Of a stretch of 41,069 nt of DNA, positions 1,009 to 41,069 are shown piece after piece. The position numbers and the translations under genes were made by a program. The DNA comes from a virus. Lineage: Duplodnaviria; Heunggongvirae; Uroviricota; Caudoviricetes. Numbering within the stretch: position 1 is the first letter of the stretch; each line of letters opens with the position of its first letter. The stretch is from the IMG/VR virus record IMGVR_UViG_2737471864_000010, positions 1 to 41,069 of that record. One strand, 5' to 3'. The notes beneath the pieces are model-generated. The model was given only the letters and a program-made list of their open reading frames with translations. It did not search any database and had not been told where the DNA came from.

Positions 1009-1083
1009 GTCCTCTTAGTTAAATGGATATAACGAGCCCCTCCTAAGGGCTAATTGCAGGTTCGATTCCTGCAGGGGACACCA
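1009..1083 (+). tRNA. argW: tRNA-Arg, anticodon CCU
   Basis: 75-nt sequence GTCCTCTTAGTTAAATGGATATAACGAGCCCCTCCTAAGGGCTAATTGCAGGTTCGATTCCTGCAGGGGACACCA with cloverleaf-compatible stems, anticodon loop CTCCTAA, T-loop GGTTCGATTCC and encoded CCA. Confidence 0.9.
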
Positions 1084-1244: not shown

Positions 1245-2402
1245 ATGCTCACCGTTAAGCAGATTGAAGCAGCAAAGCCGAAAGAAAAACCATACCGCCT
1301 ACTCGATGGTAATGGCCTGTACCTTTATGTCCCTGTATCCGGAAAAAAGGTCTGGCAGCTTCGCTACAAGATTGACGGTAAGGAAAAAATACTGACCGTA
1401 GGAAAATATCCGCTTATGACTTTGCAGGAGGCAAGGGATAAAGCATGGACTGCGAGGAAAGACATCTCGGCTGGTATCGATCCGGTAAAAGCGAAAAAGA
1501 CTTCGTCTAACAACAATTCCTTTAGCGCCATTTACAAGGAATGGTACGAGCACAAGAAGCAAGTCTGGTCAGTAGGCTATGCGACTGAACTTGCAAAAAT
1601 GTTTGATGACGACATTTTACCCATCATCGGCGGTCTTGAGATTCAGGATATTGAGCCGATGCAACTGTTGGAAGTAATCCGCAGATTTGAAGATCGCGGT
1701 GCAATGGAGCGAGCCAACAAAGCACGCAGAAGATGCGGCGAGGTTTTCCGTTACGCTATTGTCACCGGCAGGGCTAAATATAACCCGGCACCTGACCTTG
1801 CAGACGCCATGAAAGGATACCGCAAGAAGAACTTCCCGTTTCTTCCAGCAGACCAGATCCCTGCATTCAACAAAGCACTGGCAACATTTTCAGGAAGTAT
1901 CGTATCGCTCATTGCGACCAAAGTTTTACGCTATACAGCCCTAAGAACGAAAGAGCTTCGTTCCATGCAATGGAAGAACGTCGATTTTGAAAACAGGATT
2001 ATCACCATCGACGCCAATGTGATGAAGGGACGCAAAATTCATGTGGTTCCTATGTCAGACCAGGTAGTTGAACTTCTCACTACGTTAAGCTCCATCACCA
2101 AACCAGTATCAGAGTTTGTTTTTGCCGGGCGAAACGATAAGAAGAAGCCAATCTGCGAGAATGCGGTATTGCTTGTGATCAAACAAATCGGCTATGAAGG
2201 TCTGGAAAGCGGTCACGGATTCAGGCATGAATTCAGCACGATTATGAACGAGCACGAATGGCCTGCTGACGCTATTGAAGTGCAACTGGCACATGCCAAC
2301 GGCGGATCTGTGCGCGGGATTTACAACCATGCTCAGTATCTCGATAAACGCAGAGAAATGATGCAGTGGTGGGCTGACTGGATTGATGAAAAGGTTGAGT
2401 GA
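1245..2402 (+). CDS. intS: Tyrosine recombinase / prophage integrase (P4-like family), 385 aa from the internal ATG
   Basis: Track ORF 1209..2402 begins at a GTG; the ATG at 1245 gives MLTVKQIEAAKPKEKPYRL..., the typical N-terminus of P4-like integrases, and a C-terminal catalytic region ending ...HAQYLDKRREMMQWWADWID. Position next to argW matches IntS of CPS-53-type prophages. Confidence 0.85.
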   Translation: MLTVKQIEAAKPKEKPYRLLDGNGLYLYVPVSGKKVWQLRYKIDGKEKILTVGKYPLMTLQEARDKAWTARKDISAGIDPVKAKKTSSNNNSFSAIYKEWYEHKKQVWSVGYATELAKMFDDDILPIIGGLEIQDIEPMQLLEVIRRFEDRGAMERANKARRRCGEVFRYAIVTGRAKYNPAPDLADAMKGYRKKNFPFLPADQIPAFNKALATFSGSIVSLIATKVLRYTALRTKELRSMQWKNVDFENRIITIDANVMKGRKIHVVPMSDQVVELLTTLSSITKPVSEFVFAGRNDKKKPICENAVLLVIKQIGYEGLESGHGFRHEFSTIMNEHEWPADAIEVQLAHANGGSVRGIYNHAQYLDKRREMMQWWADWIDEKVE

Positions 2403-2425
2403 TCCACCTGAACCATTATCGAAGA

Positions 2426-2475
2426 GCACAAAGCCTTGCAATCCAGTACAAAGCTTTGTGCGTCTTATGTTTATT
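2426..2475 (+). terminator. Candidate intrinsic terminator downstream of int
   Basis: 9-bp inverted repeat GCACAAAGC/GCTTTGTGC followed by a T-rich tract; the loop is long, so confidence is low. Confidence 0.35.
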
Positions 2476-2523
2476 GTTATGGTGTATTTATTTGTAATAC
2501 AAGAACCAAAATAATAAATATTA

Positions 2524-4359
2524 TCAATCAACCATTGATGGGAATGATGTTGCTATAGTAAGAACAGAACCTGAAGGAAATGATTGAATTGTAACATTTC
2601 CGTTAGCCGAAATATTGATCAGTGCTATAGCATTGTTTGTTCCACAAGGTATATAAGATATATCTTTTTCTGGCCTGAACCCTGAAGGAAGATTCATTAT
2701 AACCGTTCCAACAGAAGTTGCCCCTCCAGTTAAAACGCAATTTATATTTATAATACCATCCAGAGATTTTTGGTATGTCCCTTTCCTTGATTCTCCTATA
2801 ACCCATCCATTTTGTAACAGGCCAGATATTTCATATTGCTTACCACGCCACTGTGACCATGTGTTCTCACTTATCCTTCCTATGCGAGTAAAACACACTC
2901 TGCTACTTTCAGATATATATCCATATAATTTTTGCAACACTACTCCATCAACAAATCTATCGACCTGAATAACACCATCAAGAGGCCAAGAAGAATCATC
3001 AGGATTTGTTCTCCACCATGAAGTCCCCATATGAAACGTATTTGGTGGATATGAACTACCAACAAATTGCAAAGATGAACCATTGTTAGAAAATAAATTA
3101 GAACTTCCATTTACTACTTTGCATGGGCCATATATGTAATCAAGTAACTCATGGTGAATTTGGGCGCTAAAAACATAATTTGGATGAATTCCGCGACCAT
3201 CCACATATGGATTATCAAGCCAGTTACCTGCTGCGCCTCTGGAATCCTGCCACATACCGTAAGTGTCAAAAAACATGCACTTATATTGTTTAGCTTTAGC
3301 TCTAAGCACGGCTGTTAACTGTTCATACCATTTTTCATCACGTCCGTTTGGTGTGTCTGATGTTGAGTTTGGGGACATGATAATAATTGATTGCTGGGAA
3401 ACTGATTTGTTATTTCGTAACTTGGAAAGACCTCTATCTAATGCGTCTTTTACTTGATCCAATGTATAACCATAATATGGATCGTTAATTCCCCATCGTA
3501 AAACAATCAAATCAGCAGCAGAAAAAACAGACCATTCCCGATCAATATACCAATTACCCCATTCGTATAGAGTTTTACCTGAATGACCTAACGATGTATT
3601 TTTTACATCAATAATTCCATACCTTTTTGCATAAAAATCAGCGATAGTGGCTGGAGGCCATGACTCAGAGTTTACACCAACTATAGTGGAGTCTCCAGAC
3701 CATAAAATATATGTTTTTTTATCTGAAGTTACTCCGTCACCGTTAATAAGTTTATTTGTAACATAATTTAAATACTCTTGACCTATAACAAATCTATTCC
3801 TCGGATTTGTGTATGTTGATAACTGGACACCATCCCTATTAAAAACTCTTCCCCTTCTAGCATCGATTTCCACACCATAATCATTGTTAATAGAATCAAC
3901 AACCTCATCTTCATTAATTGTTAACACCGTCTGACCTGAGACGGATGAATTAATAGCGTCTTGTATTTTTGTTTCGATAGCGCCAGATCTTTTAATGTCT
4001 TTTTCAGCACGATAATATGCCTGATCTGGGTCATATTTTAACACATTCGGAAAATAGAACTGCTGTGCACCATATGCATCATAAACAGCCATAGAATGGC
4101 CTTGCACAGTTACGAACTTGGCAATCTGTCCGTTATATACCGGGTAACCAGCAGCGTTAATGATGATTGGTTGCGATACAGGAACGTGAGAGCCATCTTC
4201 GTTCTCCACATAAACCTGCACTTGATTCTGTGGGAGCGTAGGATCGGAATCTATCTTACCAATGAATATCTTGCCATTGCTTGCGGCCTGGAATTTTCTG
4301 GCTAACGTAAATAGTTGACTTGGCATTGAAATTATAACATTTGGCACAATATTTGACAT
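2524..4359 (-). CDS. Tailspike protein: P22-type N-terminal head-binding domain fused to an SGNH/GDSL-hydrolase-like (esterase) domain
   Basis: N-terminal ~110 aa (…NGKIFIGKIDSDPTLPQNQVQVYVENEDGSHV…VTVQGHSMAVYDAYG…NVLKYDPDQ) closely resembles the P22 gp9 head-binding domain; central region carries SGNH blocks WSGDSTIVG, RWGINDP and DGRGIHP. The 3' two-thirds is visibly AT-rich. Confidence 0.75.
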   Translation of the reverse strand: MSNIVPNVIISMPSQLFTLARKFQAASNGKIFIGKIDSDPTLPQNQVQVYVENEDGSHVPVSQPIIINAAGYPVYNGQIAKFVTVQGHSMAVYDAYGAQQFYFPNVLKYDPDQAYYRAEKDIKRSGAIETKIQDAINSSVSGQTVLTINEDEVVDSINNDYGVEIDARRGRVFNRDGVQLSTYTNPRNRFVIGQEYLNYVTNKLINGDGVTSDKKTYILWSGDSTIVGVNSESWPPATIADFYAKRYGIIDVKNTSLGHSGKTLYEWGNWYIDREWSVFSAADLIVLRWGINDPYYGYTLDQVKDALDRGLSKLRNNKSVSQQSIIIMSPNSTSDTPNGRDEKWYEQLTAVLRAKAKQYKCMFFDTYGMWQDSRGAAGNWLDNPYVDGRGIHPNYVFSAQIHHELLDYIYGPCKVVNGSSNLFSNNGSSLQFVGSSYPPNTFHMGTSWWRTNPDDSSWPLDGVIQVDRFVDGVVLQKLYGYISESSRVCFTRIGRISENTWSQWRGKQYEISGLLQNGWVIGESRKGTYQKSLDGIININCVLTGGATSVGTVIMNLPSGFRPEKDISYIPCGTNNAIALINISANGNVTIQSFPSGSVLTIATSFPSMVD

Positions 4360-5986: not shown

Positions 5987-6049
5987 GTCGTTAATTCCTA
6001 TGCGTGGTTTTACGATACCGAAGCCCTGACTGTTACCGCAGTTGGGGCT

Positions 6050-6253
6050 TCAACTTTCTGCTCTATCAGTTATATCTTTCCCTTCATATACTTCACCTAT
6101 ATTGCTAATGCTGGCAGAACATCCAAGATGCTTGTATCTTATGATGTCCAACACGCAGTCACTACACAGCATCCGACCTGTTTCTTTAGAGTAAATGTAT
6201 GTTTGATCAGCGTCTGATTCGCTAATGCCGCAGAAACAACATTCTTTACTCAT
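6050..6253 (-). CDS. Small Cys-rich (zinc-ribbon-like) hypothetical protein between arc and ant
   Basis: 67 aa with CCFC…CSDC cysteine pairs; start overlaps the arc stop. Confidence 0.4.
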   Translation of the reverse strand: MSKECCFCGISESDADQTYIYSKETGRMLCSDCVLDIIRYKHLGCSASISNIGEVYEGKDITDRAES

Positions 6254-27306: not shown

Positions 27307-27930
27307 CTAACGTGTGACCGCATTCAAAATGTTGTCTGCGATTGACTCTTCTTTGTGGCATTGCACCACCAGAGCATCATACAGCGGCTTAACAGTGCGT
27401 GACCAGGTGGGTTGAGTAAGGTTTGGGATTAGCATCGTTACAGCGCGATATGCGGCGCTTGCTGGCATTCTTGAATAGCCGACACCTTTGCATCTTCCGC
27501 ACTCTTTCTCAACAACTCTCCCCCACTGCTCTGTTTTGGCTATATCAACCGCACGGCCTGTACCGTGGCAATCTCTGCATCTTGCGCCCGGCGTCGCGGC
27601 ACTACGGCAATAATCCGCATAAGCGAATGTTGCGAGCACTTGCAGTACCTTTGCCTTAGTATTTCCTTCAAGCTTTGCCACGCCACGGTATTTCCCCGAT
27701 ACCTTGTGTGCAAATTGCATCAGATAGTTGATAGCCTTTTGTTTGTCATTCTGGCTGAGTTCATGCTTACCGCAGAATGCAGCCATTCCGAATCCGGCTT
27801 GTGATTGCGCCATCCCCATAGCAGCCATCACATCAGTACCGGAAAGAGAGTCAGAAGCCGTGGCCCGTGGTGAGTCGCTCATCATCGGGCTTTTTGGCGA
27901 ATGAAATTTAGCTACGCTTTCGAGTCTCAT
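27307..27930 (-). CDS. Q: Late-gene antiterminator Q (lambda Q type)
   Basis: 207 aa MRLESVAKFHSPKSPMMSDSPRATASDSLSGTDVMAAMGMAQSQAGFGMAAF…, which I recognise as essentially lambda Q. Confidence 0.9.
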   Translation of the reverse strand: MRLESVAKFHSPKSPMMSDSPRATASDSLSGTDVMAAMGMAQSQAGFGMAAFCGKHELSQNDKQKAINYLMQFAHKVSGKYRGVAKLEGNTKAKVLQVLATFAYADYCRSAATPGARCRDCHGTGRAVDIAKTEQWGRVVEKECGRCKGVGYSRMPASAAYRAVTMLIPNLTQPTWSRTVKPLYDALVVQCHKEESIADNILNAVTR

Positions 27931-32824: not shown

Positions 32825-33685
32825 TCACCTGTCGAAAAACACGTAGCCAGTTTTCGATACGGTGATTGCGGATGATGGTTTGGATTGTGGTTGAATGGTT
32901 TCTGGCTTTTCGTCGTTCCAGCGCTGACCGTTCAGGTAGCTCGATGGTAACAACCTGTCGAATCCGAACTGCTTACCATTCCTGCATGCGATGTCTTCTG
33001 CCAGCATCGTGGCAAACTCTCTTGCCGTACCCCTGGTAGTTTTACGCCATTCCCTGAACTGTGTTCTGAATGCCGAAGCTGCGTTTTTCTTCCCGGCTTT
33101 CCGCATGCCTGCACACCAGAATATTTCCTCGAATGCCTTGTCGGTTTCTTCGTGACGGTCAGATGATTTTTCACACTCCGTCCGAACACTTTCGGACATA
33201 GTGTTTTTATTATTTCTTTTTTCTTTTGTAATAGTTTCTTTTGTGTGTCCCTGTTTTGGTGACAGCGCTGTCACCGTTTTGGTGACACTTTTTGTCACCA
33301 ATGCAGTGACATTATCACCAGAGTAGTGACACCCTTCGATTTGCCATTCTTCGATGTTCTTGTTAGGCCCGATTTGCTGGCCTTCGCGAAGGATAACCTT
33401 CATCGCGATAAGCTCATTCTTGGCCTTGTTTACCTTCTGTCTTGGCAGCCTGGTAATTTGAGCTAACTGACTATCAGAGATGCGATCCATCTTTTTACCG
33501 TAGCCGTATGTTTTACGGCATATGGCGTGGGCAACCTTGCTCTGATTTTTCGTTAAATCTGCGCCGATAAGCTCTTCATACAGGGCATTTGCAAGACGGG
33601 TATAACCATCTTCAACTTCTGCCACACGACGCTCCACAGGCCGTTGTGAAGGCCTTAAATGTGTTACGGTTGCAAGATTACTCAT
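32825..33685 (-). CDS. Replication initiator with lambda O-like N-terminal origin-binding domain
   Basis: 286 aa; N-terminus …[56 protein letters not shown]… parallels lambda O; iteron-like repeats lie inside the coding sequence. Confidence 0.75.
33258..33334. repeat. Origin-like iteron array inside the initiator gene, followed by an AT-rich tract
   Basis: Reiterated GGTGACA/TGTCACC-type inverted repeats at roughly 20-bp spacing; AT-rich run at about 33205-33250 on the side toward the initiator C-terminus. Confidence 0.65.
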
Positions 33686-33856
33686 GACCTTTCTCCTTCT
33701 GCATCAGCTTCACTTTTTCCAACTCAGCCCGGAATCGACCAGGCTGCTTGAAGCTGGACAGGAAGCGATCACGTAGTATGTGTTTGTGAATTTTGTCCTG
33801 GTAAGGACTGAGTTGTTTTGTCATAATTACTCCCGTGGATTGATCCAGTAATTCCC

Positions 33857-34153
33857 TCAGAATTGCATATCAATTTGCTTAAAATCCTCGGTGGCGGCCG
33901 GGGATTTTTTCTTTGTGAGTCCATCAAGCGCATACTTAAAAGCCCTGCTAATCGGACTGATGTCTGATGCCATTCCGAAAGCACACAAGACCGAAGCAAT
34001 AAATCTCCAGTCCGTTCTGCTTATCTTCGATTCATGACAGCCAATCATCTTTGCCAGACCGCGCTGGGTAAGCGTTGACAGGTTGATGAGTAAATCAGTT
34101 TCAGCGCGATCAATTTCTCGCTGTGTTGGCTTGCTGTAACTTGTTTGTGTCAT
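33857..34153 (-). CDS. cII: CII-like transcriptional activator
   Basis: 98 aa; helix-turn-helix [15 protein letters not shown] and C-terminal [18 protein letters not shown] parallel lambda CII. Confidence 0.7.
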
Positions 34154-34274
34154 TTCTTACTATCTCCATAGGTAAATAATTTGGGTTTTTATCGTGCACC
34201 ATTGACAGTCATCCTTGACCACGCCGGGCACCCGACCGTATACCGGGCCGTTCGGTACTAAAAGTACATTTTTA

Positions 34275-34505
34275 TTACATAACAAACTGCTGTTTACCGA
34301 TACGGCGAATCTGTGCTGCTGAGTACTTGCCGCCTGATGCCTTGGCGATCTTATCCGCATATTCGGTTTCACCAGTGAACTCGGTACGCGGCAGAGAACC
34401 ACGCTCAAGCCACTTATAGATGGCTTTTGGCGTAAGTCCACAAACATCAGCCACAACAGAAACTCGAACGGATTTGATAACTTCTCCAAACGTAACTTCG
34501 TTCAT
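34275..34505 (-). CDS. cro: Cro-like helix-turn-helix repressor
   Basis: 76 aa, divergent from cI, AGGAGA site 6 nt upstream; helix-turn-helix VADVCGLTPKAIYKWLERG. Confidence 0.6.
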   Translation of the reverse strand: MNEVTFGEVIKSVRVSVVADVCGLTPKAIYKWLERGSLPRTEFTGETEYADKIAKASGGKYSAAQIRRIGKQQFVM

Positions 34506-34520
34506 GCTTCTCTCCTGCGG

Positions 34521-34592
34521 TGAACTTATGGTTCATATTATGACGGAACTGATAGTACAGTCAATACCTAATATAGTTGAACTTATGGTTCA
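34521..34592. promoter_or_regulatory. Immunity control region: two copies of a 15-bp operator palindrome TGAACTTATGGTTCA, PR for cro, and PRM-like promoter for cI
   Basis: Operator copies at about 34521-34535 and 34578-34592; minus-strand PR -35 TTGACT and -10 ATAATA with a 17-bp spacer; plus-strand TAATAT 10 nt before the cI ATG. Confidence 0.6.
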
Positions 34593-35292
34593 ACAGAAAG
34601 AGCGTGAAACTTTCTCGCAGAGGCTTGCGCTGGCCTGTGATAAAGCGGGATTACCTTTGCATGGTAGGCAGGCTGATTTAGCTGTCAGGCTTAAGGTCAC
34701 ACCAAAAGCCATTAGTAAATGGTTCAACGGGGAGTCAATACCAAGAAAAGACAAGATGGAATCTCTGGCTTCGGTGCTGGGAACTACTGCTGCATATCTG
34801 CATGGCTATGCTGATGATGACGGTATCACGGTAAATCATCTATCAAGATCAAATGATTATTATCGTGTTGATGTATTGGATGTTCAGGCGAGCGCCGGGC
34901 CAGGAACCATGGTTTCCAATGAATTTATAGAAAAGATAAGAGCAATTGAATATACGACCGAGCAGGCAAGAATTTTATTTAATGGAAGGCCACAGGAAAG
35001 CGTAAAAGTCATCACGGTTCGCGGTGACAGCATGGAGGGAACCATCAATCCGGGAGATGAGATCTTTGTTGATGTATCCATAACCTGTTTTGATGGCGAT
35101 GGCATTTATGTGTTTGTATACGGGAAAACAATGCACGTTAAGCGCCTGCAAATGCAAAAGAACAGGCTTGCCGTCATCTCTGACAATGCCGCTTATGATC
35201 GATGGTACATAGAAGAAGGTGAAGAAGAGCAACTTCACATTCTAGCCAAAGTCCTCATTAGGCAGTCAATCGATTACAAGCGATTCGGATAA
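34585..35292 (+). CDS. cI: CI-type prophage repressor (N-terminal helix-turn-helix, C-terminal S24 LexA-like autopeptidase domain)
   Basis: Track ORF 34420..35292 trimmed to the ATG at 34585 because the longer form overlaps cro and the promoter; helix-turn-helix QADLAVRLKVTPKAISKWFNG; S24 Ser motif VRGDSMEG and Lys in GKTMHVKRLQ. Confidence 0.85.
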   Translation: MVQQKERETFSQRLALACDKAGLPLHGRQADLAVRLKVTPKAISKWFNGESIPRKDKMESLASVLGTTAAYLHGYADDDGITVNHLSRSNDYYRVDVLDVQASAGPGTMVSNEFIEKIRAIEYTTEQARILFNGRPQESVKVITVRGDSMEGTINPGDEIFVDVSITCFDGDGIYVFVYGKTMHVKRLQMQKNRLAVISDNAAYDRWYIEEGEEEQLHILAKVLIRQSIDYKRFG

Positions 35293-35307
35293 AAATAAAT
35301 TTCCTTA

Positions 35308-35342
35308 AAGTTCACTAACTTATGATGTAGTGAGCTTTTTAT
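35308..35342 (+). terminator. Candidate intrinsic terminator just downstream of cI
   Basis: 10-bp stem AAGTTCACTA/TAGTGAGCTT with a 10-nt loop, followed by TTTTTATA. Confidence 0.4.
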
Positions 35343-35644
35343 ACCCATAAAATGTACTATTGGTACTTTACATTAATGAACTTTAAGTACATCATAAGCC
35401 CATAGACGAACGGCGCGTCTTTAAACCATGCGTCGGGAGCGCGGCGGGTTCAGGATGAACGGCAATGCTGCTCATTAGCGAGAAGGCTTTTTTGCTTTTA
35501 GTCACAAAAAGCAAAGCAGCTTTTTGATATAGAAGTCGTTCGAAAAAATAGAAGTATTTATTGCAAAGATTCAAACCCATTAGGAAACAAAATACATGCA
35601 GTCCAAAAAATAAAATTGTACAGTAAACTACCGTACGGTGCTTA

Positions 35645-35989
35645 TTGGGTATGCTTATGGTGAAAAAGACTATTTATGTTAATCCTGACAGCGGACAAAA
35701 CAGAAAAGTATCTGATAGAGGTCTTACATCTCGAGACAGGAGGAGAATAGCGAGATGGGAAAAAAGGATAGCATATGCATTAAAAAACGGTGTAACACCT
35801 GGATTTAATGCTATAGATGACGGTCCTGAATATAAGATTAATGAAGAACCAATGGACAAAGTTGACAAAGCATTAGCAACACCATTTCCTCGCGATGTCG
35901 AAAAAATTGAAGATGAAAAATATGAGGATGTAATGCACAGAGTTGTTAATCACGCTCACCAACGAAATCCAAATAAAAAATGGTCATAG
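35645..35989 (+). CDS. Candidate N-like transcription antiterminator (arginine-rich motif protein); true start uncertain
   Basis: First gene of the early-left operon; arginine-rich segment TSRDRRRIARWEKRIAYA; followed immediately by a strong intrinsic terminator and more same-strand genes. No sequence match to known N proteins recognised. Confidence 0.35.
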   Translation: MGMLMVKKTIYVNPDSGQNRKVSDRGLTSRDRRRIARWEKRIAYALKNGVTPGFNAIDDGPEYKINEEPMDKVDKALATPFPRDVEKIEDEKYEDVMHRVVNHAHQRNPNKKWS

Positions 35990-36012
35990 CCCACTTCGGT
36001 GGGTTTTTTTGT
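35990..36012 (+). terminator. Intrinsic terminator (tL1-like) immediately after the N-like gene
   Basis: CCCAC-TTCG-GTGGG followed by TTTTTTTG. Confidence 0.8.
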
Positions 36013-36193
36013 TGTCTGAACAAACCTAATTTACTACCGCAAGCCACGCAGTGAAATGGGCGTGACTTGTGTTGGTCGCCAGAAAATGAAATTAGGCAGC
36101 AAACCACTTATTTGAGGTGATATATGGAAGAAGAATTTGAAGAGTTCGAAGAGCATCCGCAGGATGTGATGGAACAATACCAGGACTATCCGT

Positions 36194-36394
36194 ATGACTA
36201 CGACTATTGATAAGAATCAATGGTGTGGACAATTCAAACGATGCAATGGATGCAAGCTGCAATCGGAATGCATGGTTAAGCCTGAAGAAATGTTTCCTGT
36301 AATGGAAGATGGGAAATATGTCGATAAATGGGCAATACGAACGACGGCAATGATTGCCAGAGAACTTGGTAAACAGAATAACAAGGCTGCCTGA
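36194..36394 (+). CDS. ral: Ral-like restriction-alleviation protein
   Basis: 66 aa MTTTIDKNQWCGQFKRCNGCKLQSECMV…, at the position lambda carries ral; identity is from memory and not verified. Confidence 0.5.
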   Translation: MTTTIDKNQWCGQFKRCNGCKLQSECMVKPEEMFPVMEDGKYVDKWAIRTTAMIARELGKQNNKAA

Positions 36395-36528
36395 TGGTAG
36401 CCTTTATTTTTGGCATAAACAACAGAATAAACACTGCACTGTGTATTCATTCCAACGAGTGAATACACGGAGCAATGTCGCTCGTAACTAAACAGGAGCC
36501 GACTTGTTCTGATTATTGGAAATCTTCT

Positions 36529-36558
36529 TTGCCCTCTAATGTGAGGGCAATTTTTTTG
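36529..36558 (+). terminator. Intrinsic terminator within the early-left operon (tL2-like)
   Basis: TTGCCCTC-TAATGTG-GAGGGCAA followed by TTTTTTT, 12 bp before the next gene's ribosome-binding site. Confidence 0.8.
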
Positions 36559-36569
36559 ACGGAGGAATT

Positions 36570-36986
36570 ATGGAAATTACAGATATTCTGGTTAATCCAG
36601 ATAATTACGACCAATTCAATATCTCTACTCAATCAGTTGATTTGGGATGTGCAACTGTCAGCGCATGGCTACTTAATGGTAAACAGTTGGATAAATGCCT
36701 TGATGCACATATGACGGTTAACAACTTCCTTGCAGAAAAAACACACTGGCAAGATGCTGGAGGGAAATATGCTGGATGGCTTGAAAGCATGGGGTTTGAA
36801 TATCAATCTGATGAAGGTTGGTGGAGCCTTATAGCTGTAACGCCTGAGACAATAGAATGCTTCGTTAAATACTCAAACGACGATGACTATAAAAACCAGG
36901 TAGATTCTGCGATAGAAAGATATAAAAGAAAATCATTCAGCCACGAAATATCATCAGTTCTTGATTTCATAGAAGTCTTCAAATAA
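36570..36986 (+). CDS. Hypothetical early protein
   Basis: 138-aa acidic ORF with a GGAGG site; no family recognised. Confidence 0.45.
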   Translation: MEITDILVNPDNYDQFNISTQSVDLGCATVSAWLLNGKQLDKCLDAHMTVNNFLAEKTHWQDAGGKYAGWLESMGFEYQSDEGWWSLIAVTPETIECFVKYSNDDDYKNQVDSAIERYKRKSFSHEISSVLDFIEVFK

Positions 36987-37069
36987 GCCGCCAAGCGCGG
37001 CTTTACCGCATACCAATAACGCTTCACTCGAGGCGTTTTCGTTATGCAATCAAACAGAAGGAGCATCCT

Positions 37070-37240
37070 ATGCAACAGTTCGCTATTGCAGGGGCGGCAT
37101 CGGTTCGCCCTTTCAACCCGATTTTATCGGTACAGCATTCACGAAAAAATATTTTAACCGGAGCAGACTTTAAACAACCAAGAATGAAAAGTTTGCTCGA
37201 AAAGCTTTGGGATATTTTGAAACAACAAGGCCGTCCATGA
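37070..37240 (+). CDS. cIII: CIII-like protein (below track cutoff; frame and start uncertain)
   Basis: Hand-read C-terminal portion …AIAGAASVRPFNPILSV…SLLEKLWDILKQQGRP resembles lambda CIII; my reading of the 5' end disagreed with the track frame by one base. Confidence 0.4.
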   Translation: MQQFAIAGAASVRPFNPILSVQHSRKNILTGADFKQPRMKSLLEKLWDILKQQGRP

Positions 37241-37407
37241 GTTTTACCAATAACTGGTCAGACGAAGAATTCATTCGTCAGATGAAAGATTTAATCGGTA
37301 ACGAAGGAGATATTCATGTCACTTGCAACCACAGTGAAGGAGAGCAAGTTACAGAGACGCATGTACACGCAGCAGGCGTTAATGTATCGCCAGAAGGGAG
37401 ATCGTGA
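37237..37407 (+). CDS. Small hypothetical early protein
   Basis: Track ORF 37207..37407 (TTG start) trimmed to the ATG that overlaps the preceding stop; 56 aa. Confidence 0.35.
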   Translation: MSFTNNWSDEEFIRQMKDLIGNEGDIHVTCNHSEGEQVTETHVHAAGVNVSPEGRS

Positions 37408-37496
37408 AGGTGTTCGCGTCTTTTTAAATGCGGCAAAGACCGAAGTATTAAATCAGCGTTATTTCCTTGGTCCATGTCCATTCTGAGAACAATCAT

Positions 37497-38102
37497 ATGA
37501 GCAAAGAATTTTACGCAAGACTGGCAGCTATTCAGGAAAATCTGAACGCGCCCAAGAATCAGTACAACTCATTCGGTAAATATAAATACAGAAGCTGCGA
37601 AGACATTCTTGAAGGCGTTAAGCCGTTACTGAATGGTCTGTTTTTATCAATCAGCGATGAAGTTGTGTTGATTGGTGATCGGTATTACGTGAAAGCCACG
37701 GCAACTATTACCGATGGCGAAAACAGTCATACGGCAACCGCTCTTGCACGAGAGGAAGAAAGCAAGAAAGGAATGGATTCTGCACAAGTTACGGGAGCTA
37801 CAAGCTCTTATGCACGCAAGTATTGCCTCAATGGTTTGTTCGGCATTGATGATGCGAAAGATGCAGATACAGACGAGCATAAACATCAGCAGAACGCAGC
37901 AGCAAAGCAATCAAAACCATCACCTACACCTGAACAGGTTCTAAAAGCATTCACTGACGCAGCATTGCAGAAAAACACCGTAGAAGAGCTTAAACAGGCG
38001 TTCGCCAAAGCGTGGAAGATGCTCGAAGGCACACCGGAGCAGCACAAAGCGCAGGACGTTTACAACATCAGACGAGACGAATTAGAAGGAGCGGCTGCTT
38101 AA
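37497..38102 (+). CDS. erf: ERF-family single-strand annealing protein
   Basis: Track ORF trimmed to ATG; MSKEFYARLAAIQENLNAPKNQYNSFGKYKYRSCEDILEGVKPLL… closely matches P22 Erf as recalled. Confidence 0.85.
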   Translation: MSKEFYARLAAIQENLNAPKNQYNSFGKYKYRSCEDILEGVKPLLNGLFLSISDEVVLIGDRYYVKATATITDGENSHTATALAREEESKKGMDSAQVTGATSSYARKYCLNGLFGIDDAKDADTDEHKHQQNAAAKQSKPSPTPEQVLKAFTDAALQKNTVEELKQAFAKAWKMLEGTPEQHKAQDVYNIRRDELEGAAA

Positions 38103-38485
38103 TGGCACATTCGATTACTGTAAGACTAAACAAGCCCGCAAGAGAGTTTCAGGCCGGGGAAAATATCGGATTCAACATCCGTGCTGGCGTTCAGTATTAC
38201 GATCGCCAGACAAAAAAGAAAGAATGGACAAACTACAGCGCCGTTGTATTTGCCAAGCCTGGAGCGCAAGCGGATTACTACCGTAGTGTTCTTGTTGAAG
38301 GTGGCATTGTGGAAATTACCGGAGAAAACATCAGGGTTGATGTTTATCAGGGGCAAAATGGTCAATCAATCACTCTTGAATTACTGAATGCAAAGATTGG
38401 ATTTGCAACTTCAGGAAACAGCCAACAGCAACAAAGTAGCAATCATCAAAATCATCCTGAATACGACGATTCAATTCCCTTCTAA
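38102..38485 (+). CDS. Phage single-stranded-DNA-binding protein (OB-fold, acidic C-terminal tail)
   Basis: Track ORF 38012..38485 trimmed to the ATG overlapping the erf stop; 127 aa ending …EYDDSIPF, which mimics the SSB C-terminal DDDIPF tail. Confidence 0.6.
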   Translation: MAHSITVRLNKPAREFQAGENIGFNIRAGVQYYDRQTKKKEWTNYSAVVFAKPGAQADYYRSVLVEGGIVEITGENIRVDVYQGQNGQSITLELLNAKIGFATSGNSQQQQSSNHQNHPEYDDSIPF

Positions 38486-38508
38486 ATTAGCAACATAAGG
38501 ATTCCATT

Positions 38509-38805
38509 ATGCCAGCGCCTCTGTATGGTGCGGATGACCCGCGCCGCTGTTCCGGCAATTCCGTATCGGAGGTGCTGGATAAATTCAGAAAAAACTACGA
38601 TCGAATAATGTCTCTACAACAGGAAACGAAAGAGGAAAAGGAATTTCGCCACTGTATATGGCTTGCAGAGAAAGAAGAACGAGAGCGAATTTACCAGACA
38701 TCAATCCGACCATTCCGCAAAGCCACATATACCCACTTCCCTGAATATATCGACCCGCGCCTGCGTAATTACCGCTCACGCTATGGCGCTATCAGTAATG
38801 ACTGA
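38509..38805 (+). CDS. Hypothetical early protein
   Basis: 98-aa ORF; no family recognised. Confidence 0.45.
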   Translation: MPAPLYGADDPRRCSGNSVSEVLDKFRKNYDRIMSLQQETKEEKEFRHCIWLAEKEERERIYQTSIRPFRKATYTHFPEYIDPRLRNYRSRYGAISND

Positions 38806-38815
38806 GGAATTAACA

Positions 38816-39106
38816 ATGAAAACAATGAAGCTAAACATCGACCTCGGAAAATACGTTATTACCGGAACCAAACACGATCTGATTCTTAGCGAAAGAGGAA
38901 TTATCAAAGAAGGCGAGAATGCAGGGAAAGAAACACTAAGCCGTATCGGTTATTACAGCAAGTTTGAGCATCTGGTTAAAGAGTTATGCAACCGTGAAAT
39001 TCTGTTATCTCAGGCACGGACGCTACAGGATATTCAGCAGCATATCGAAGCTTTAGGTATGTCACTTAGCATGGCTATTGACCAGTTCGTGGAGAGTAAA
39101 TCATGA
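38816..39106 (+). CDS. Hypothetical early protein
   Basis: Track ORF 38663..39106 trimmed to [13 protein letters not shown]… which follows a GAGGAA site; 96 aa. Confidence 0.45.
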
Positions 39107-39266
39107 GAGGACTTGCATACAATCCCGGCATTCTTCCGGCAGAAATGATTATTCGCCAACGCGTAAAGCCAATGCCATCGAGAGAGGAATTGCTTAAGAG
39201 AAATAGTTTCGGTTCTGTTAATGACAACAAATATCTGAATGCGATGTGGCGCAAAGGAGGCAACCA

Positions 39267-39812
39267 GTGAGTGTAACGGTTGAAAAGATTGATGTGTTGT
39301 CATTCGTTATAACCGGTGCAGAGCGACTAGATCCGGTTCGAGTGATGATTGAAAACTACGAACCTGGTAAGGGAAGAATCACCATCACCTGCTACGGAAA
39401 AGCGTGGACTGCGGCTTGGTTTGCTATGGGCGGTGATGATGTGCAGACGTTCATTAAGCGGGTCAGCAACGAGTATCTAATCGGCTATTTCGACCCTCAA
39501 CTGCGAAGCACGGTCGACGATGACAACGATGCAAATCTGCTTTTCGTGAAGTCAGAAATCATAAAATTACGAAGAGAGAGAGAAATCGACGCGGTACAGG
39601 CTCGCGAAATGTGGGACGAGGCGGAAAACGCCGATGACGTAAAAGAAAGCTGCTGTTGTTTCGGCGTCGGTAACAAACTGCTGAATCTCTTTGGTGATGA
39701 TCCATGGTATGCCGACTGGCCAAAGGCACCAAACCCGAAATACCAGTATCTGGAACGCGTACTTAATGCAGTGAGAGACGGTCTTAAGCAAATAGAGAAG
39801 GTGGAACCATGA
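39267..39812 (+). CDS. Hypothetical early protein
   Basis: Track ORF 39246..39812 trimmed to the GTG preceded by AAAGGAGG; 181 aa, acidic. Confidence 0.5.
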
Positions 39813-39864
39813 CTGTATGTCTTATTGATAAACGTCGACGTGGGCAACAATACCATCTGTTGGA

Positions 39865-40107
39865 ATGCCGAATCACACATGGTTTTGCGTACTTGATATC
39901 GATGGTATGGATGCGTTGGTTGAAACTCGTCATTACTGCGATACCGCAACAGCTACTCCGGCGAAAGCAAAGAAAATGGCTGCTCTGATAGAAAACTGGA
40001 CTCCACCTGATGGTTGGTGCAATGGGAATGATCGAGATTGGCATGAAAAAATGAAGGGCTATATCTGCGATTTCTTACGTAAATGCAACGGCTTCAGGGT
40101 GATGTGA
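39865..40107 (+). CDS. Hypothetical early protein
   Basis: 80-aa ORF; an alternative overlapping frame starting near 39809 exists, so start and frame are uncertain. Confidence 0.35.
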   Translation: MPNHTWFCVLDIDGMDALVETRHYCDTATATPAKAKKMAALIENWTPPDGWCNGNDRDWHEKMKGYICDFLRKCNGFRVM

Positions 40108-40108
40108 T

Positions 40109-40798
40109 ATGACCAAAATTAACTATCAGTCACTGCGTGAAGCGGCAGAAAAAGCAACGTGTGGTGAGTGGTCGCTCGAATATGGAGAAAGCCGATTTGA
40201 TGGTGATGATGCGCTAATTCATCGTGAAGTTGCTGGATATATTCCTATTTGCAGAATTGAAGGAGCGCATCCTGAAAGCGGTTTCGATGAAGATTTCCAA
40301 ATGGAACAGCAGGCCAATGCTGAATTCATCGCTGCAGCCAATCCGGCTACCGTGCTGGCACTGCTGGATGAACGGGAAAGAAACCAGCAATACATCAAAC
40401 GCCGCGACCAGGAGAACGAGGAAATTGCGCTAGCGGTAGGGAAACTGCGTGTTGAGCTGGAAGCCGCAGAGAAGCGCAACGCAAAATTACAAAGCGAGAA
40501 TGCATACATCCGCAACCGGTTCAAAGAACTGGACCTGTTAATCGGGAAAAACATTCTGGTCATGCAGGCTGCGATTATCGAATGGCAGGCAACTGGCGAC
40601 GCTAAAAGCGGACTGGCATGGATTTATAACACACTGTTTGGCCCAGGCGAATTGCCGGACGAATCTGAGAAAGATGCTCAGGCCTACTTTAATCGCAAAT
40701 ATGCACCGATTGACGAAAAGCTTATGGAGCTTCACAAGTGGTTTTGGGAACAAAGTGAAGCCGAGCGCACTGCTGGTATTCGCATCAAAGGAGAGTGA
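40109..40798 (+). CDS. Ead/Ea22-like early protein
   Basis: 229 aa; N-terminus MTKINYQSLREAAEKATCGEW and a coiled-coil central region resemble Ead/Ea22-family proteins; tentative. Confidence 0.45.
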   Translation: MTKINYQSLREAAEKATCGEWSLEYGESRFDGDDALIHREVAGYIPICRIEGAHPESGFDEDFQMEQQANAEFIAAANPATVLALLDERERNQQYIKRRDQENEEIALAVGKLRVELEAAEKRNAKLQSENAYIRNRFKELDLLIGKNILVMQAAIIEWQATGDAKSGLAWIYNTLFGPGELPDESEKDAQAYFNRKYAPIDEKLMELHKWFWEQSEAERTAGIRIKGE

Positions 40799-41000
40799 TA
40801 TGAGCAGGAATACGGGTTTGTAAAAAATAACGCTTGTGAAAATGCTGAATTTCGCGTCGTCTTCACAGCGATGCCAGAGTCTGTAGTGTCAGATGATGAC
40901 CGTACTCAAACATCGGGTTGAGTATTATCTTACTGTTTCTTTACATAAACATTGCTGATACCGTTTAGCTGAAACGACATACATTGCAAGGAGTTTATAA

Positions 41001-41069
41001 ATGAGTATCAATGAGTTAGAGTCTGAGCAAAAAGATTGGGCGTTATCAATGTGGATTTGCCCCTATATT
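41001..41069 (+). CDS. 5' fragment of a further early-operon gene, truncated by the window end
   Basis: ATG preceded by CAAGGAG; only 23 codons visible. Confidence 0.3.
   Translation, partial: MSINELESEQKDWALSMWICPYI

What the first reader, a model, noticed from the sequence alone, without database searches (positions are those of the whole stretch)
35293..36570. Early-left operon with two strong intrinsic terminators and a non-canonical N-like candidate
Two textbook intrinsic terminators (35990-36012 and 36529-36558) interrupt a run of same-strand early genes, so an antitermination mechanism is expected. The first gene (35645..35989) has an arginine-rich stretch (SRDRRRIARWEKRIAYA) at the position where N proteins carry their RNA-binding motif, but it otherwise does not resemble N proteins I know, and I could not find convincing boxA/boxB elements. 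A perfect 9-bp-arm palindrome (GTGTATTCA n10 TGAATACAC, about 36441-36468) lies just before the second terminator.
Basis: inference. Interest (0 to 1): 0.5.

Follow-up and report, generated by a model that had tools for sequence, protein, structure and literature searches.

The report
Known HK022 putL/Nun early-left region
This is the well-studied early-left control region of a phage HK022-type prophage. A short RNA (putL), not the arginine-rich protein, lets RNA polymerase read through the two terminators, and the protein is Nun, which blocks the rival phage lambda, so the finding is real but ordinary.

Summary
All of it is already explained.

- **HK022 identity.** Window 35293-35650 is 100% identical to the phage HK022 OL/PL/putL/PNun region.
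- **The "N-like candidate".** It is Nun, 108/109 identical to PDB 6ALG chain N, with an arginine-rich motif identical to the peptide of PDB 1HJI. Nun arrests transcription on superinfecting lambda. HK022 growth does not need it.
- **Antitermination.** It is expected here, but it comes from the cis-acting putL RNA (about 35402-35473). A second copy, putR, lies at about 34194-34258 on the minus strand. put RNA binds the RNA polymerase beta' zinc-binding domain without any phage protein, which explains why no nut site is found.
- **Terminator 1 (35988-36010).** It overlaps the nun stop codon and probably ends the put-less transcripts from nun's own promoter.
- **Terminator 2 (36529-36557).** It is lambda tL2a, the 3' end of the Hfq-dependent sRNA PreS/LPR1.
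- **The palindrome.** It is a conserved hairpin immediately 5' of PreS. HK022 itself carries IS903 inside it.

The window is a P22-like prophage assembled from known modules. The only open point is what the hairpin does.

The parts
34194..34258 (-). putR, the second put antiterminator RNA, between cro (34275-34505, minus strand) and cII (33857-34153, minus strand)
   Evidence: Identical to HK022 and O276 putR. Coordinates were transferred from the O276 and HK75 annotation. It aligns with putL.
34585..35292 (+). cI repressor of HK022 immunity type
   Evidence: Colinear with O276/HK75/HK022 cI. Pfam HTH_3 plus Peptidase_S24.
35331..35390 (.). OL3, OL2 and OL1 operators (35331-35345, 35353-35368, 35377-35390)
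   Evidence: Transferred from the HK75 annotation. The sequence is 100% identical to HK022.
35367..35395 (+). PL promoter (-35 TTTACA 35367-35372, -10 CATCAT 35390-35395); inferred transcription start at A35402
   Evidence: Promoter scan. O276, HK75 and X16093 annotation. The start was inferred because the -10-like AACCAT then falls at +23..+28, as stated in PMC9378689.
35402..35473 (+). putL antiterminator RNA (annotated core 35411-35473), a cis-acting two-stem-loop RNA that makes RNA polymerase resistant to terminators
   Evidence: 100% identical to HK022 putL and annotated as putL in O276 and HK75. With +1 = 35402, every residue named in the cryo-EM paper has the stated base (A8, A9, C18, U20, U21, C25, C26, U28, G29, U32, G35, G36, G43, A64, U68). 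Divergent homologues keep two stems, with compensatory changes in 6 of 18 pairs.
35483..35528 (+). A/U-rich hairpin followed by U5. The T6 run at its 5' side (35488-35493) lies about 21 nt past putL stem II, where the put-suppressed pause was mapped. The 1989 HK022 record labelled this hairpin 'put. nutL equivalent'.
   Evidence: Fold -17 kcal/mol, z -3.4. Inverted repeat I2. X16093 feature. Pause position from PMC9378689.
35596..35624 (+). nun's own promoter (PNun: -35 35596-35601, -10 35619-35624)
   Evidence: Coordinates transferred from the O276 annotation. Sequence identical to HK022. The reference to King et al. 2000 appears in the reference list seen; the paper itself was not readable.
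35660..35989 (+). nun: Nun transcription arrest/termination factor, 109 aa from GTG 35660 (alternative annotated start ATG 35651). Arginine-rich motif at 35714-35791. C-terminal H98, K106, K107 and W108 intact. One substitution, D63E.
   Evidence: PDB 6ALG_N, E 2e-71, 108/109 identical; 1HJI_B 26/26 identical. PHROG 5632. No Pfam family.
35988..36010 (+).
   Evidence: Identical in type to the sequence after nun in mEp235 and Kapi1. It differs from HK022/HK75, where the tail is UUUCAUUUU.
36124..36210 (+). orf28 homologue (28 aa, acidic)
   Evidence: PHROG 16060, 7e-19. About 97% identical to lambda and phage 21.
36194..36394 (+). ral, restriction alleviation protein
   Evidence: Pfam Ral 1.6e-48. 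PHROG 1055. Lambda alignment.
36383..36412 (+). Hairpin plus T-rich tail overlapping the ral stop codon (additional terminator-like site)
   Evidence: Fold -15.2 kcal/mol, z -3.5. Conserved in lambda with 3 substitutions.
36431..36478 (+). Palindromic hairpin (perfect core 36441-36468), the 5' part of the conserved block that also holds PreS and tL2a
   Evidence: Identical in lambda; phage 21 has one loop change. Disrupted by IS903 in HK022 and O276. Part of the sharply bounded block 36436-36557 seen in many flanking contexts, which corresponds to Sf6 'bsq4'.
36470..36557 (+). Homologue of the lambda sRNA PreS/LPR1. The 5' end is estimated from the reported sizes of about 88 nt, processed to about 68 nt.
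   Evidence: The body is 100% identical to lambda. bioRxiv 10.1101/2024.10.31.621285 places LPR1 between ral and ea10, ending at tL2a. The predicted fold is a stem-loop, a single-stranded A/U stretch, then the terminator.
36529..36557 (+).
   Evidence: Annotated 'tL2a' in O276 and 'homology to phage lambda; tL2A' in Sf6. Three substitutions against lambda, two in the loop and one turning a U.G closing pair into U-A.
36570..36986 (+). Next early-left gene, function unknown (takes the place of lambda ea10), followed by a cIII homologue at 37070-37240
   Evidence: PHROG 8967 (9e-87) and PHROG 550 (1e-22).

Best explanation
The region is the early-left control module of an HK022-immunity lambdoid prophage.

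**In the lysogen.** cI represses PL. The weak constitutive promoter PNun transcribes nun alone. These transcripts carry no put RNA, so they stop at the strong terminator that overlaps the nun stop codon. Nun binds the boxB hairpin of a superinfecting lambda's nut RNA through its arginine-rich motif. Its C-terminus wedges into RNA polymerase and arrests it, which excludes lambda.

**On induction or infection.** PL fires. The first roughly 72 nt of the transcript (putL) fold into two stem-loops that bind the beta' zinc-binding domain of the same polymerase. They stay bound, suppress pausing, and carry the enzyme through the nun terminator, the hairpin at the end of ral, tL2a and later terminators into cIII, erf, ssb and the rest. 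No phage protein is needed. putR does the same for the PR operon.

**At tL2a.** The fraction of transcripts that end there, after 5' trimming next to the conserved palindromic hairpin, gives the Hfq-dependent sRNA PreS. In lambda, PreS boosts dnaN translation and phage replication.

**Shown here:** the sequence identities and the anatomy. **Shown in the literature** for HK022 and lambda: the functions. **Inferred:** that the parts work the same way in this mosaic prophage, that terminator 1 insulates PNun transcripts, and any role for the palindromic hairpin.
For: Window 35293-35650 is 100% identical to HK022 X16093 and O276 across OL, PL, putL and PNun. A 176-nt PL-putL query is 100% identical to HK022. 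putR is identical to HK022 putR.

All residues named in the put cryo-EM paper match when +1 is set at 35402. The -10-like AACCAT then falls at +23..+28.

Divergent put homologues (phiEt88, UPF_BP1, CobraSix, HK639, S9-5, putR) share a two-stem consensus, with compensatory changes in 6 of 18 pairs.

Nun is 108/109 identical to 6ALG_N and 26/26 identical to the 1HJI arginine-rich peptide.

Neither boxA nor lambda boxB occurs above chance, and none sits in the leaders. There is no plus-strand ORF of at least 30 aa between PL and nun.

Both terminators are strong hairpin-plus-U7 structures. Terminator 2 is annotated tL2a in O276 and Sf6. It lies in a block about 97% identical to lambda orf28-ral-tL2a.

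Literature: put acts alone and suppresses intrinsic and Rho-dependent terminators at least 10 kb downstream (PMC9378689). HK022 relies solely on put, and Nun replaces N. Nun's only known role is lambda exclusion, and nun mutants grow normally (PMC4124055). Nun mechanism: PMC5386594. PreS/LPR1 ends at tL2a (bioRxiv 10.1101/2024.10.31.621285).
Against: Nothing was measured in this prophage; function is carried over by sequence identity.

The putL minimum-free-energy fold alone is no better than shuffled sequence (z -0.04). Rfam has no put or PreS family to confirm membership.

Terminator 1 differs from HK022's (U7 here, UUUCAUUUU there), so put read-through of this particular terminator has not been tested.

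The account of PNun and of its transcripts stopping after nun rests on the O276 annotation and on my recollection of King et al. 2000, which could not be read.

The PreS 5' end is estimated from band sizes, not mapped.
Confidence: 0.93

Rival explanations
1. One reading: the arginine-rich protein (35645-35989) is a non-canonical N-type antiterminator that binds a cryptic nut-like RNA in the PL leader and carries polymerase through the two terminators.
For: It sits where N sits. It has an N-like arginine-rich motif and weak local similarity to lambda N (30% over 60 aa, E 3e-4). Terminators lie downstream.
Against: It is 108/109 identical to Nun, whose documented activity is arrest or termination on lambda nut transcripts. 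nun mutations leave HK022 lytic growth and lysogeny unaffected. HK022 needs no phage protein for antitermination. No boxA or boxB is present.
Confidence: 0.02
2. There is no processive antitermination here. The terminators are real operon ends, and the genes beyond them are expressed from internal promoters or are silent remnants of a defective prophage.
For: The window's exact arrangement is not found in any phage or complete E. coli genome record searched. Terminator 1 is stronger than HK022's. Activity of the prophage is untested.
Against: putL and putR are both intact and identical to functional HK022 elements. The early-left genes (ral, cIII, erf, ssb) are intact ORFs packed on one strand. 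Only one promoter-like match was found on that strand downstream of nun, at 36576-36605 inside the next gene (9 of 12).
Confidence: 0.03
3. About the palindrome only: it acts on DNA rather than as an RNA hairpin. It could be a protein-binding site, or a recombination 'boundary sequence' that promotes module exchange among lambdoid phages.
For: It lies at the left edge of a block that has many different upstream neighbours. Sf6 annotates the block as boundary sequence bsq4. The hairpin is almost invariant, so no covariation supports an RNA role. Both strands fold about equally well (-24.9 vs -24.4 kcal/mol). IS903 targeted it in HK022.
Against: The 10-nt 'spacer' is itself largely self-complementary, giving a 14-bp stem with a 4-nt loop. 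That is unnecessary for a two-half-site protein operator. The element lies inside a transcribed operon, directly abutting the estimated 5' end of the 88-nt PreS precursor. In about 8 loci where the hairpin is replaced, homology resumes at 36471, the predicted PreS start.
Confidence: 0.25

Closest known systems
Phage HK022 PL-putL-nun region (X16093, AF069308/NC_002166); also phages O276 and HK75
   Same: OL operators, PL, putL, the A/U hairpin and PNun are 100% identical. Nun is 108/109 identical. putR, cro, cI and cII are colinear.
   Different: HK022 and O276 carry IS903 inserted in the palindromic hairpin and have no orf28-ral. HK75 joins nun directly to the hairpin/PreS block. The last ~30 nt of nun and its terminator are of the mEp235/Kapi1 type here, with a U7 tail instead of UUUCAUUUU. 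The virion genes are P22-like, not HK97-like.
Lambda N / nutL antitermination system
   Same: Same position in the operon and the same biological need: reading through tL terminators to express ral, cIII and the recombination genes. Nun shares an arginine-rich boxB-binding motif with N.
   Different: There is no boxA or boxB. The protein arrests rather than antiterminates. Polymerase is modified by an RNA acting in cis without Nus factors or phage protein.
Lambda orf28-ral-PreS(LPR1)-tL2a segment (lambda 33925-34381)
   Same: About 97% identical, with the sRNA body identical. Same order: orf28, ral, hairpin, PreS, tL2a.
   Different: Three substitutions in the tL2a hairpin. The downstream gene is a PHROG 8967 protein rather than ea10. 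Upstream is nun rather than N and sieB.
mEp235 / Kapi1 / mEpX1-type early-left regions
   Same: The nun allele's 3' end, its terminator and the following ~120 nt are the same.
   Different: Those phages carry an N gene with annotated boxA immediately upstream of nun, and P22-type immunity instead of putL.

Membership tests
HK022 put antiterminator RNA (putL/putR) | putL lies immediately downstream of PL, and a second copy (putR) lies about 270 nt downstream of the PR start, between cro and cII | tested here: met
   putL starts at or near the inferred PL start, 35402. putR is at about 34194-34258 (minus strand), between cro and cII.
HK022 put antiterminator RNA (putL/putR) | A sequence of about 70 nt carrying the functionally critical nucleotides (A9, G35, A64, U68, U28 of the -10-like NANNAT at +23..+28) | tested here: met
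   100% identity to HK022 putL. All named residues match with +1 = 35402.
HK022 put antiterminator RNA (putL/putR) | Two stem-loop secondary structure supported across homologues | tested here: met
   RNAalifold on 8 put sequences gives two stems, and 6 of 18 pairs show compensatory changes. The sample is small and related. The single-sequence fold is not better than shuffles.
HK022 put antiterminator RNA (putL/putR) | Protein-independent terminator read-through that depends on the beta' zinc-binding domain | not testable with these tools
   Known for HK022 (PMC9378689). Testing it here needs reporter or in vitro transcription assays.
Nun transcription arrest factor | N-terminal arginine-rich motif that binds lambda boxB | tested here: met
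   Residues 19-44 are identical to the Nun peptide solved with boxB RNA (1HJI_B, 26/26).
Nun transcription arrest factor | C-terminal RNA-polymerase-interacting residues (H98, K106, K107, W108 as penultimate residue) | tested here: met
   Full-length alignment to 6ALG_N is 108/109 identical. The only change is D63E. Residue roles are from PMC5386594.
Nun transcription arrest factor | Excludes lambda when expressed from the repressed prophage | not testable with these tools
   The PNun sequence is identical to HK022. The phenotype needs a plating assay.
Lambda N-type antiterminator | Cognate nut site (boxA plus boxB hairpin) in the PL and PR leaders | tested here: not met
   boxA-like matches occur at chance level, with none intact in the leaders. 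There is no lambda boxB near PL or PR.
Lambda N-type antiterminator | Sequence membership in an N family | tested here: not met
   No Pfam hit. Similarity to lambda N is limited to 60 aa around the arginine-rich motif. There is no alignment to the HK620-type N of mEp235. The best PHROG is Nun-like.
PreS/LPR1 Hfq-dependent sRNA ending at lambda tL2a | Sequence homologous to lambda between ral and the next gene, ending in a GC-rich hairpin plus poly-U | tested here: met
   The body is identical to lambda, with three changes in the terminator hairpin. Hairpin plus U7. Definition.
PreS/LPR1 Hfq-dependent sRNA ending at lambda tL2a | Accumulates as an RNA of about 88 and 68 nt in the lytic cycle, binds Hfq and regulates dnaN | not testable with these tools
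   Reported for lambda only.
Intrinsic (Rho-independent) terminator | GC-rich hairpin immediately followed by a U-tract on the transcribed strand | tested here: met
   Both sites are listed. Fold z-scores are -2.9 and -5.5.

The most novel reading that the evidence does not exclude
The palindromic hairpin (36431-36478) may be an uncharacterised RNA element that belongs functionally to the PreS sRNA unit. It could be a processing or stability determinant that sets the 5' end of the PreS precursor and protects the 3' end of the upstream ral mRNA. That would explain why hairpin, sRNA and tL2a travel together as one sharply bounded ~122-nt cassette among lambdoid phages. In put-type phages, PreS output might also depend on the fraction of polymerases that fail to acquire put RNA.
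Probability: 0.3. Interest if true: 0.3.

Novelty: already known. Interest (0 to 1): 0.1.

Why it matters
It matters little as a discovery. put RNA, Nun, tL2a and PreS are each described experimentally, and the first two have cryo-EM structures.

The case is useful as a calibration point. A reader working from sequence alone correctly deduced that antitermination must exist and that nut sites are absent. It then assigned the activity to the wrong molecule, because the true agent is a 70-nt RNA that has no Rfam family and is invisible to free-energy scans.

Two minor points of value follow. The window shows the HK022-type nun region without the IS903 insertion, combined with lambda's ral-PreS block and P22-like virion genes. 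It also shows that the hairpin-PreS-tL2a block is a discrete cassette found in many flanking contexts.

Tried and rejected
- **Rfam.** A gathering-threshold scan of the whole window found only sar RNA and a tRNA. Rfam has no put or PreS family.
- **Pfam.** No family matches Nun.
The putL and putR minimum-free-energy folds are no better than shuffled sequence (z -0.04 and -0.49). That test would have missed the real element.
- **boxA and lambda boxB pattern searches.** Chance level only.
- **Nun against the HK620-type N of mEp235.** No alignment.
- **Covariation test for the palindromic hairpin.** 126 homologous loci were collected, but the hairpin is nearly invariant, so the test has no power.
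- **Strand asymmetry of the hairpin.** Uninformative: -24.9 vs -24.4 kcal/mol.
- **King et al. 2000 on PNun (PMC94296).** Not held, so the insulation role of terminator 1 rests on annotation and recollection.
- **Exact 5' end of PreS.** Not given in the preprint text.
- **Source of the window.** No phage or complete E. coli genome record covers more than about 81% of the 1278-bp region in one place.
- **Coordinate slips of mine.** These caused three failed Pfam/PHROG calls (17, 19, 20) and a misplaced PDP110P1 row. None is used as evidence.
Full report
**1. The observation**

- *Terminators.* The pattern scan finds hairpin-plus-T-run sites at 35988-36005 and 36529-36550. The region 33500-41069 has 15 terminator-like sites, against 7.6 +/- 2.9 in dinucleotide shuffles.
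- *Folds.* The first terminator is GCCCAC-UUCG-GUGGGU followed by U7 (-10.3 kcal/mol, z -2.9). It includes the stop codon of the upstream gene. The second is an 8-bp GC-rich stem followed by U7 (-14.5 kcal/mol, z -5.5).
- *The gene.* ORF 35645-35989 contains SRDRRRIARWEKRIAYA.
- *The palindrome.* GTGTATTCA N10 TGAATACAC sits exactly at 36441-36468. It is the core of 22-nt arms. As RNA these form a 14-bp stem with a 4-nt loop plus extensions (-24.9 kcal/mol, z -6.3).
A degenerate boxA occurs 35 times in the window against 36 expected, and none is intact in the leaders. Lambda boxB has no match near PL or PR.

**2. What it is**

A megablast of 35293-36570 against phage records hits HK022, O276 and HK75. 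The features annotated under the match include Nun, 'putL: antiterminator RNA', pL, oL and terminators.

Window 35293-35650 is 100% identical to the HK022 immunity-region record X16093 and to O276. A 176-nt PL-putL query is 100% identical to HK022. Transferring the annotations gives these coordinates:

| Element | Window coordinates |
|---|---|
| cI | 34585-35292 |
| OL3 / OL2 / OL1 | 35331-35390 |
| PL -35 | 35367-35372 |
| PL -10 | 35390-35395 |
| putL (annotated core) | 35411-35473 |
| PNun -35 / -10 | 35596-35601 / 35619-35624 |
| nun (old 112-aa annotation) | 35651-35989 |

The protein read from GTG 35660 is 108/109 identical to the Nun chain of the Nun-arrested elongation complex (PDB 6ALG). 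The single change is D63E. Residues 19-44 are identical to the Nun peptide solved with boxB RNA (PDB 1HJI). The best PHROG is 'Nun-like transcription termination factor' at 1.4e-67. Pfam has no family for it.

On the other side of the immunity region, putR is identical to HK022 putR. It lies between cro and cII at about 34194-34258 on the minus strand.

**3. A check on putL that does not rely on annotation**

The cryo-EM paper on put RNA (PMC9378689) states that a -10-like NANNAT lies at +23..+28 of the putL transcript. It also names residues A8, A9, C18, U20, U21, C25, C26, U28, G29, U32, G35, G36, G43, A64 and U68.

Setting +1 at A35402, 7 nt after the -10 hexamer, places AACCAT at +23..+28. 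Every named residue then has the stated base (read).

I aligned the window's putL and putR with HK75 putR and with diverged put-like elements from phiEt88, UPF_BP1, CobraSix, HK639 and S9-5. The consensus has two stem-loops, and 6 of 18 pairs keep pairing through changes on both sides. The sample is small and related, so this is supporting evidence only.

The single-sequence folds of putL and putR are no more stable than shuffles (z -0.04 and -0.49). Rfam has no put family.

**4. Downstream of nun**

- *A recombinant nun 3' end.* Differences from HK022 cluster in the last ~30 nt of nun. They consist of synonymous changes and a TAG stop in place of TAA. The terminator also differs: GGGUUUUUUU here, GGGUUUCAUUUU in HK022. 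This stretch is identical to the nun allele of mEp235 and Kapi1. In those phages nun follows an N gene.
- *The lambda-like block.* From about 36019 the sequence matches phage 21, CUS-3 and HK544. From 36099 it matches lambda 33925-34381 at about 97%. The block contains orf28 (36124-36210; PHROG 16060) and ral (36194-36394; Pfam Ral 1.6e-48). It also contains a hairpin with a T-rich tail over the ral stop (36383-36412), the palindromic hairpin, and the second terminator.
- *The second terminator.* O276 annotates it as tL2a. Sf6 annotates it as 'homology to phage lambda; tL2A'.
- *PreS.* A 2024 preprint (bioRxiv 10.1101/2024.10.31.621285) shows that tL2a in lambda is the 3' end of LPR1/PreS. This is an Hfq-bound sRNA of about 88 nt, processed to about 68 nt, lying between ral and ea10. 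It is made in the lytic cycle, activates dnaN translation and supports phage replication. The window's copy is identical to lambda in the sRNA body. It differs at three positions in the terminator hairpin, two in the loop and one that turns a U.G closing pair into U-A.
- *Where the palindrome sits.* Counting 88 nt back from the U-run puts the precursor's 5' end near 36470. That is directly at the 3' foot of the palindromic hairpin. The predicted fold is three consecutive hairpins: palindrome, PreS stem-loop and terminator.

**5. The palindrome in context**

I collected 126 loci that contain a 27-nt PreS core. They show a sharply bounded conserved block, window 36436-36557. It has more than ten unrelated upstream neighbours and several downstream ones. 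This corresponds to the 'bsq4 boundary sequence' annotated in Sf6.

The hairpin is almost invariant, so covariation cannot be tested. In about eight loci the hairpin is replaced, and homology resumes at 36471, the estimated PreS start.

In HK022 and O276 an IS903 copy interrupts the hairpin, and TCATTCCAA appears on both sides of the insertion. In HK75 nun is joined directly to the hairpin-PreS block. The window therefore shows an uninterrupted version with lambda's orf28-ral in between.

The hairpin's function is not established. I favour an RNA role tied to PreS biogenesis or ral mRNA stability. A role on DNA, in recombination or protein binding, is not excluded.

**6. Mechanism**

Steps established for HK022 in the literature:

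- put RNA alone modifies E. coli RNA polymerase by binding the beta' zinc-binding domain. It stays associated and suppresses pausing and both intrinsic and Rho-dependent termination at least 10 kb downstream (PMC9378689).
- Nun binds lambda boxB through its arginine-rich motif and arrests polymerase through its C-terminus (PMC5386594).
- Nun's only known role is exclusion of lambda, and nun mutations do not affect HK022 lytic growth or lysogeny (PMC4124055).

Steps I infer for this prophage from sequence identity:

- PL transcripts acquire putL and read through 35988-36010, 36383-36412, 36529-36557 and 37018-37043 into cIII, erf, ssb and beyond (gene identities).
- PNun transcripts start downstream of putL and are not modified, so they stop at the strong terminator over the nun stop codon. 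nun can then be expressed in the lysogen without turning on ral, cIII or kil. This point rests on the O276 annotation and on my recollection of King et al. 2000, which I could not read.
- Nun cannot act on its own phage, because the phage has no boxB.

The T6 run at 35488-35493 lies about 21 nt after putL stem II, which is where the put-suppressed backtracking pause was mapped. The A/U hairpin around it (35483-35528, z -3.4) is the element that the 1989 record labelled 'put. nutL equivalent'.

**7.

The logic that terminators imply antitermination, and the absence of nut sites, were both right. Assigning the activity to the arginine-rich protein was wrong.

The protein is an N relative in position and motif.

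**8. Setting and novelty**

- *The prophage.* The window is a P22-like prophage next to tRNA-Arg(CCT) (1009-1083). It carries an integrase-sized ORF at 1209-2402, a sar antisense RNA (5988-6055) and a Q-type late antiterminator (27307-27930). Its virion genes are closest to phiv205-1, CUS-3 and Kapi1. Its early genes are a mosaic of 720R6, mEp043, Sf101 and HK022.
- *How common the parts are.* putL-type leaders are uncommon but known: 19 phage records and 37 of 5,426 complete E. coli genomes. No record searched holds the exact 1278-bp combination. That reflects ordinary lambdoid mosaicism.
- *Scores.* Every part belongs to a described system, so the novelty class is 'already known' and interest is low. 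The one loose end worth a small experiment is the role of the conserved hairpin 5' of PreS.

Noticed in passing
window 36436-36557: The palindromic hairpin, the PreS sRNA body and tL2a form one sharply bounded conserved cassette of about 122 nt. It is found with more than 10 unrelated upstream and several different downstream neighbours in 126 loci, and it equals Sf6 'bsq4 boundary sequence'. In about 8 loci the hairpin is replaced and homology resumes at 36471, the estimated PreS 5' end.
   Followed up: partly
window 36447-36455; L001 (O276) about 2342-3290: In HK022 and O276, IS903 is inserted inside this hairpin, and TCATTCCAA is present on both sides of the insertion. The window carries the uninterrupted site.
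   Followed up: partly
window 35960-36130: The last ~30 nt of nun, its terminator and the next ~120 nt match the mEp235/Kapi1 nun allele rather than HK022. This suggests a recombination joint inside the 3' end of nun. The resulting terminator has a U7 tail instead of HK022's UUUCAUUUU.
   Followed up: partly
L005 (mEp235) 1313-1959; L007 (Kapi1) 1313-1959: Several lambdoid and P22-like phages carry nun immediately downstream of an N gene with annotated boxA. Those phages have both an N antiterminator and Nun. How such a phage avoids Nun acting on its own nut sites was not examined.
   Followed up: no
window 35483-35528: An A/U-rich hairpin followed by U5 lies between putL and PNun (z -3.4). 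It is identical in HK022, where the 1989 record called it 'put. nutL equivalent'. Its T6 run (35488-35493) coincides with the put-suppressed pause. Whether the hairpin itself terminates unmodified polymerase is unknown to me.
   Followed up: partly
window 35307-35343: A hairpin (AAAGUUCACUA / UAGUGAGCUUU, z -3.9) followed by U5 lies directly after the cI stop codon and overlaps OL3. It may be the cI terminator. If so, it would stop PRM transcripts from running into putL and becoming antiterminated.
   Followed up: no
window 36383-36412 and 37018-37043: Two more terminator-like hairpins lie on the early-left strand. One overlaps the ral stop codon and is conserved in lambda. The other lies just before the cIII homologue.
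   Followed up: partly
window 1009-1083, 1209-2402, 5988-6055: tRNA-Arg(CCT) lies next to an integrase-sized ORF, which suggests an attachment site at argW. A sar antisense RNA (Rfam RF00262, 85.7 bits) marks a P22-type immI region. The prophage therefore combines P22-like virion and immI modules with HK022 immC/put/nun.
   Followed up: partly
window 36570-36986: The gene after tL2a is a 138-aa protein of unknown function (PHROG 8967, no Pfam hit). It occupies the position of lambda ea10.
   Followed up: no
window 35360-35535: putL-type PL leaders are rare. They occur in 19 phage records and 37 of 5,426 complete E. coli genomes. Diverged copies occur in Salmonella, Erwinia and Enterobacter phages, where they are mostly unannotated or lie under 'hypothetical protein' calls.
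   Followed up: partly
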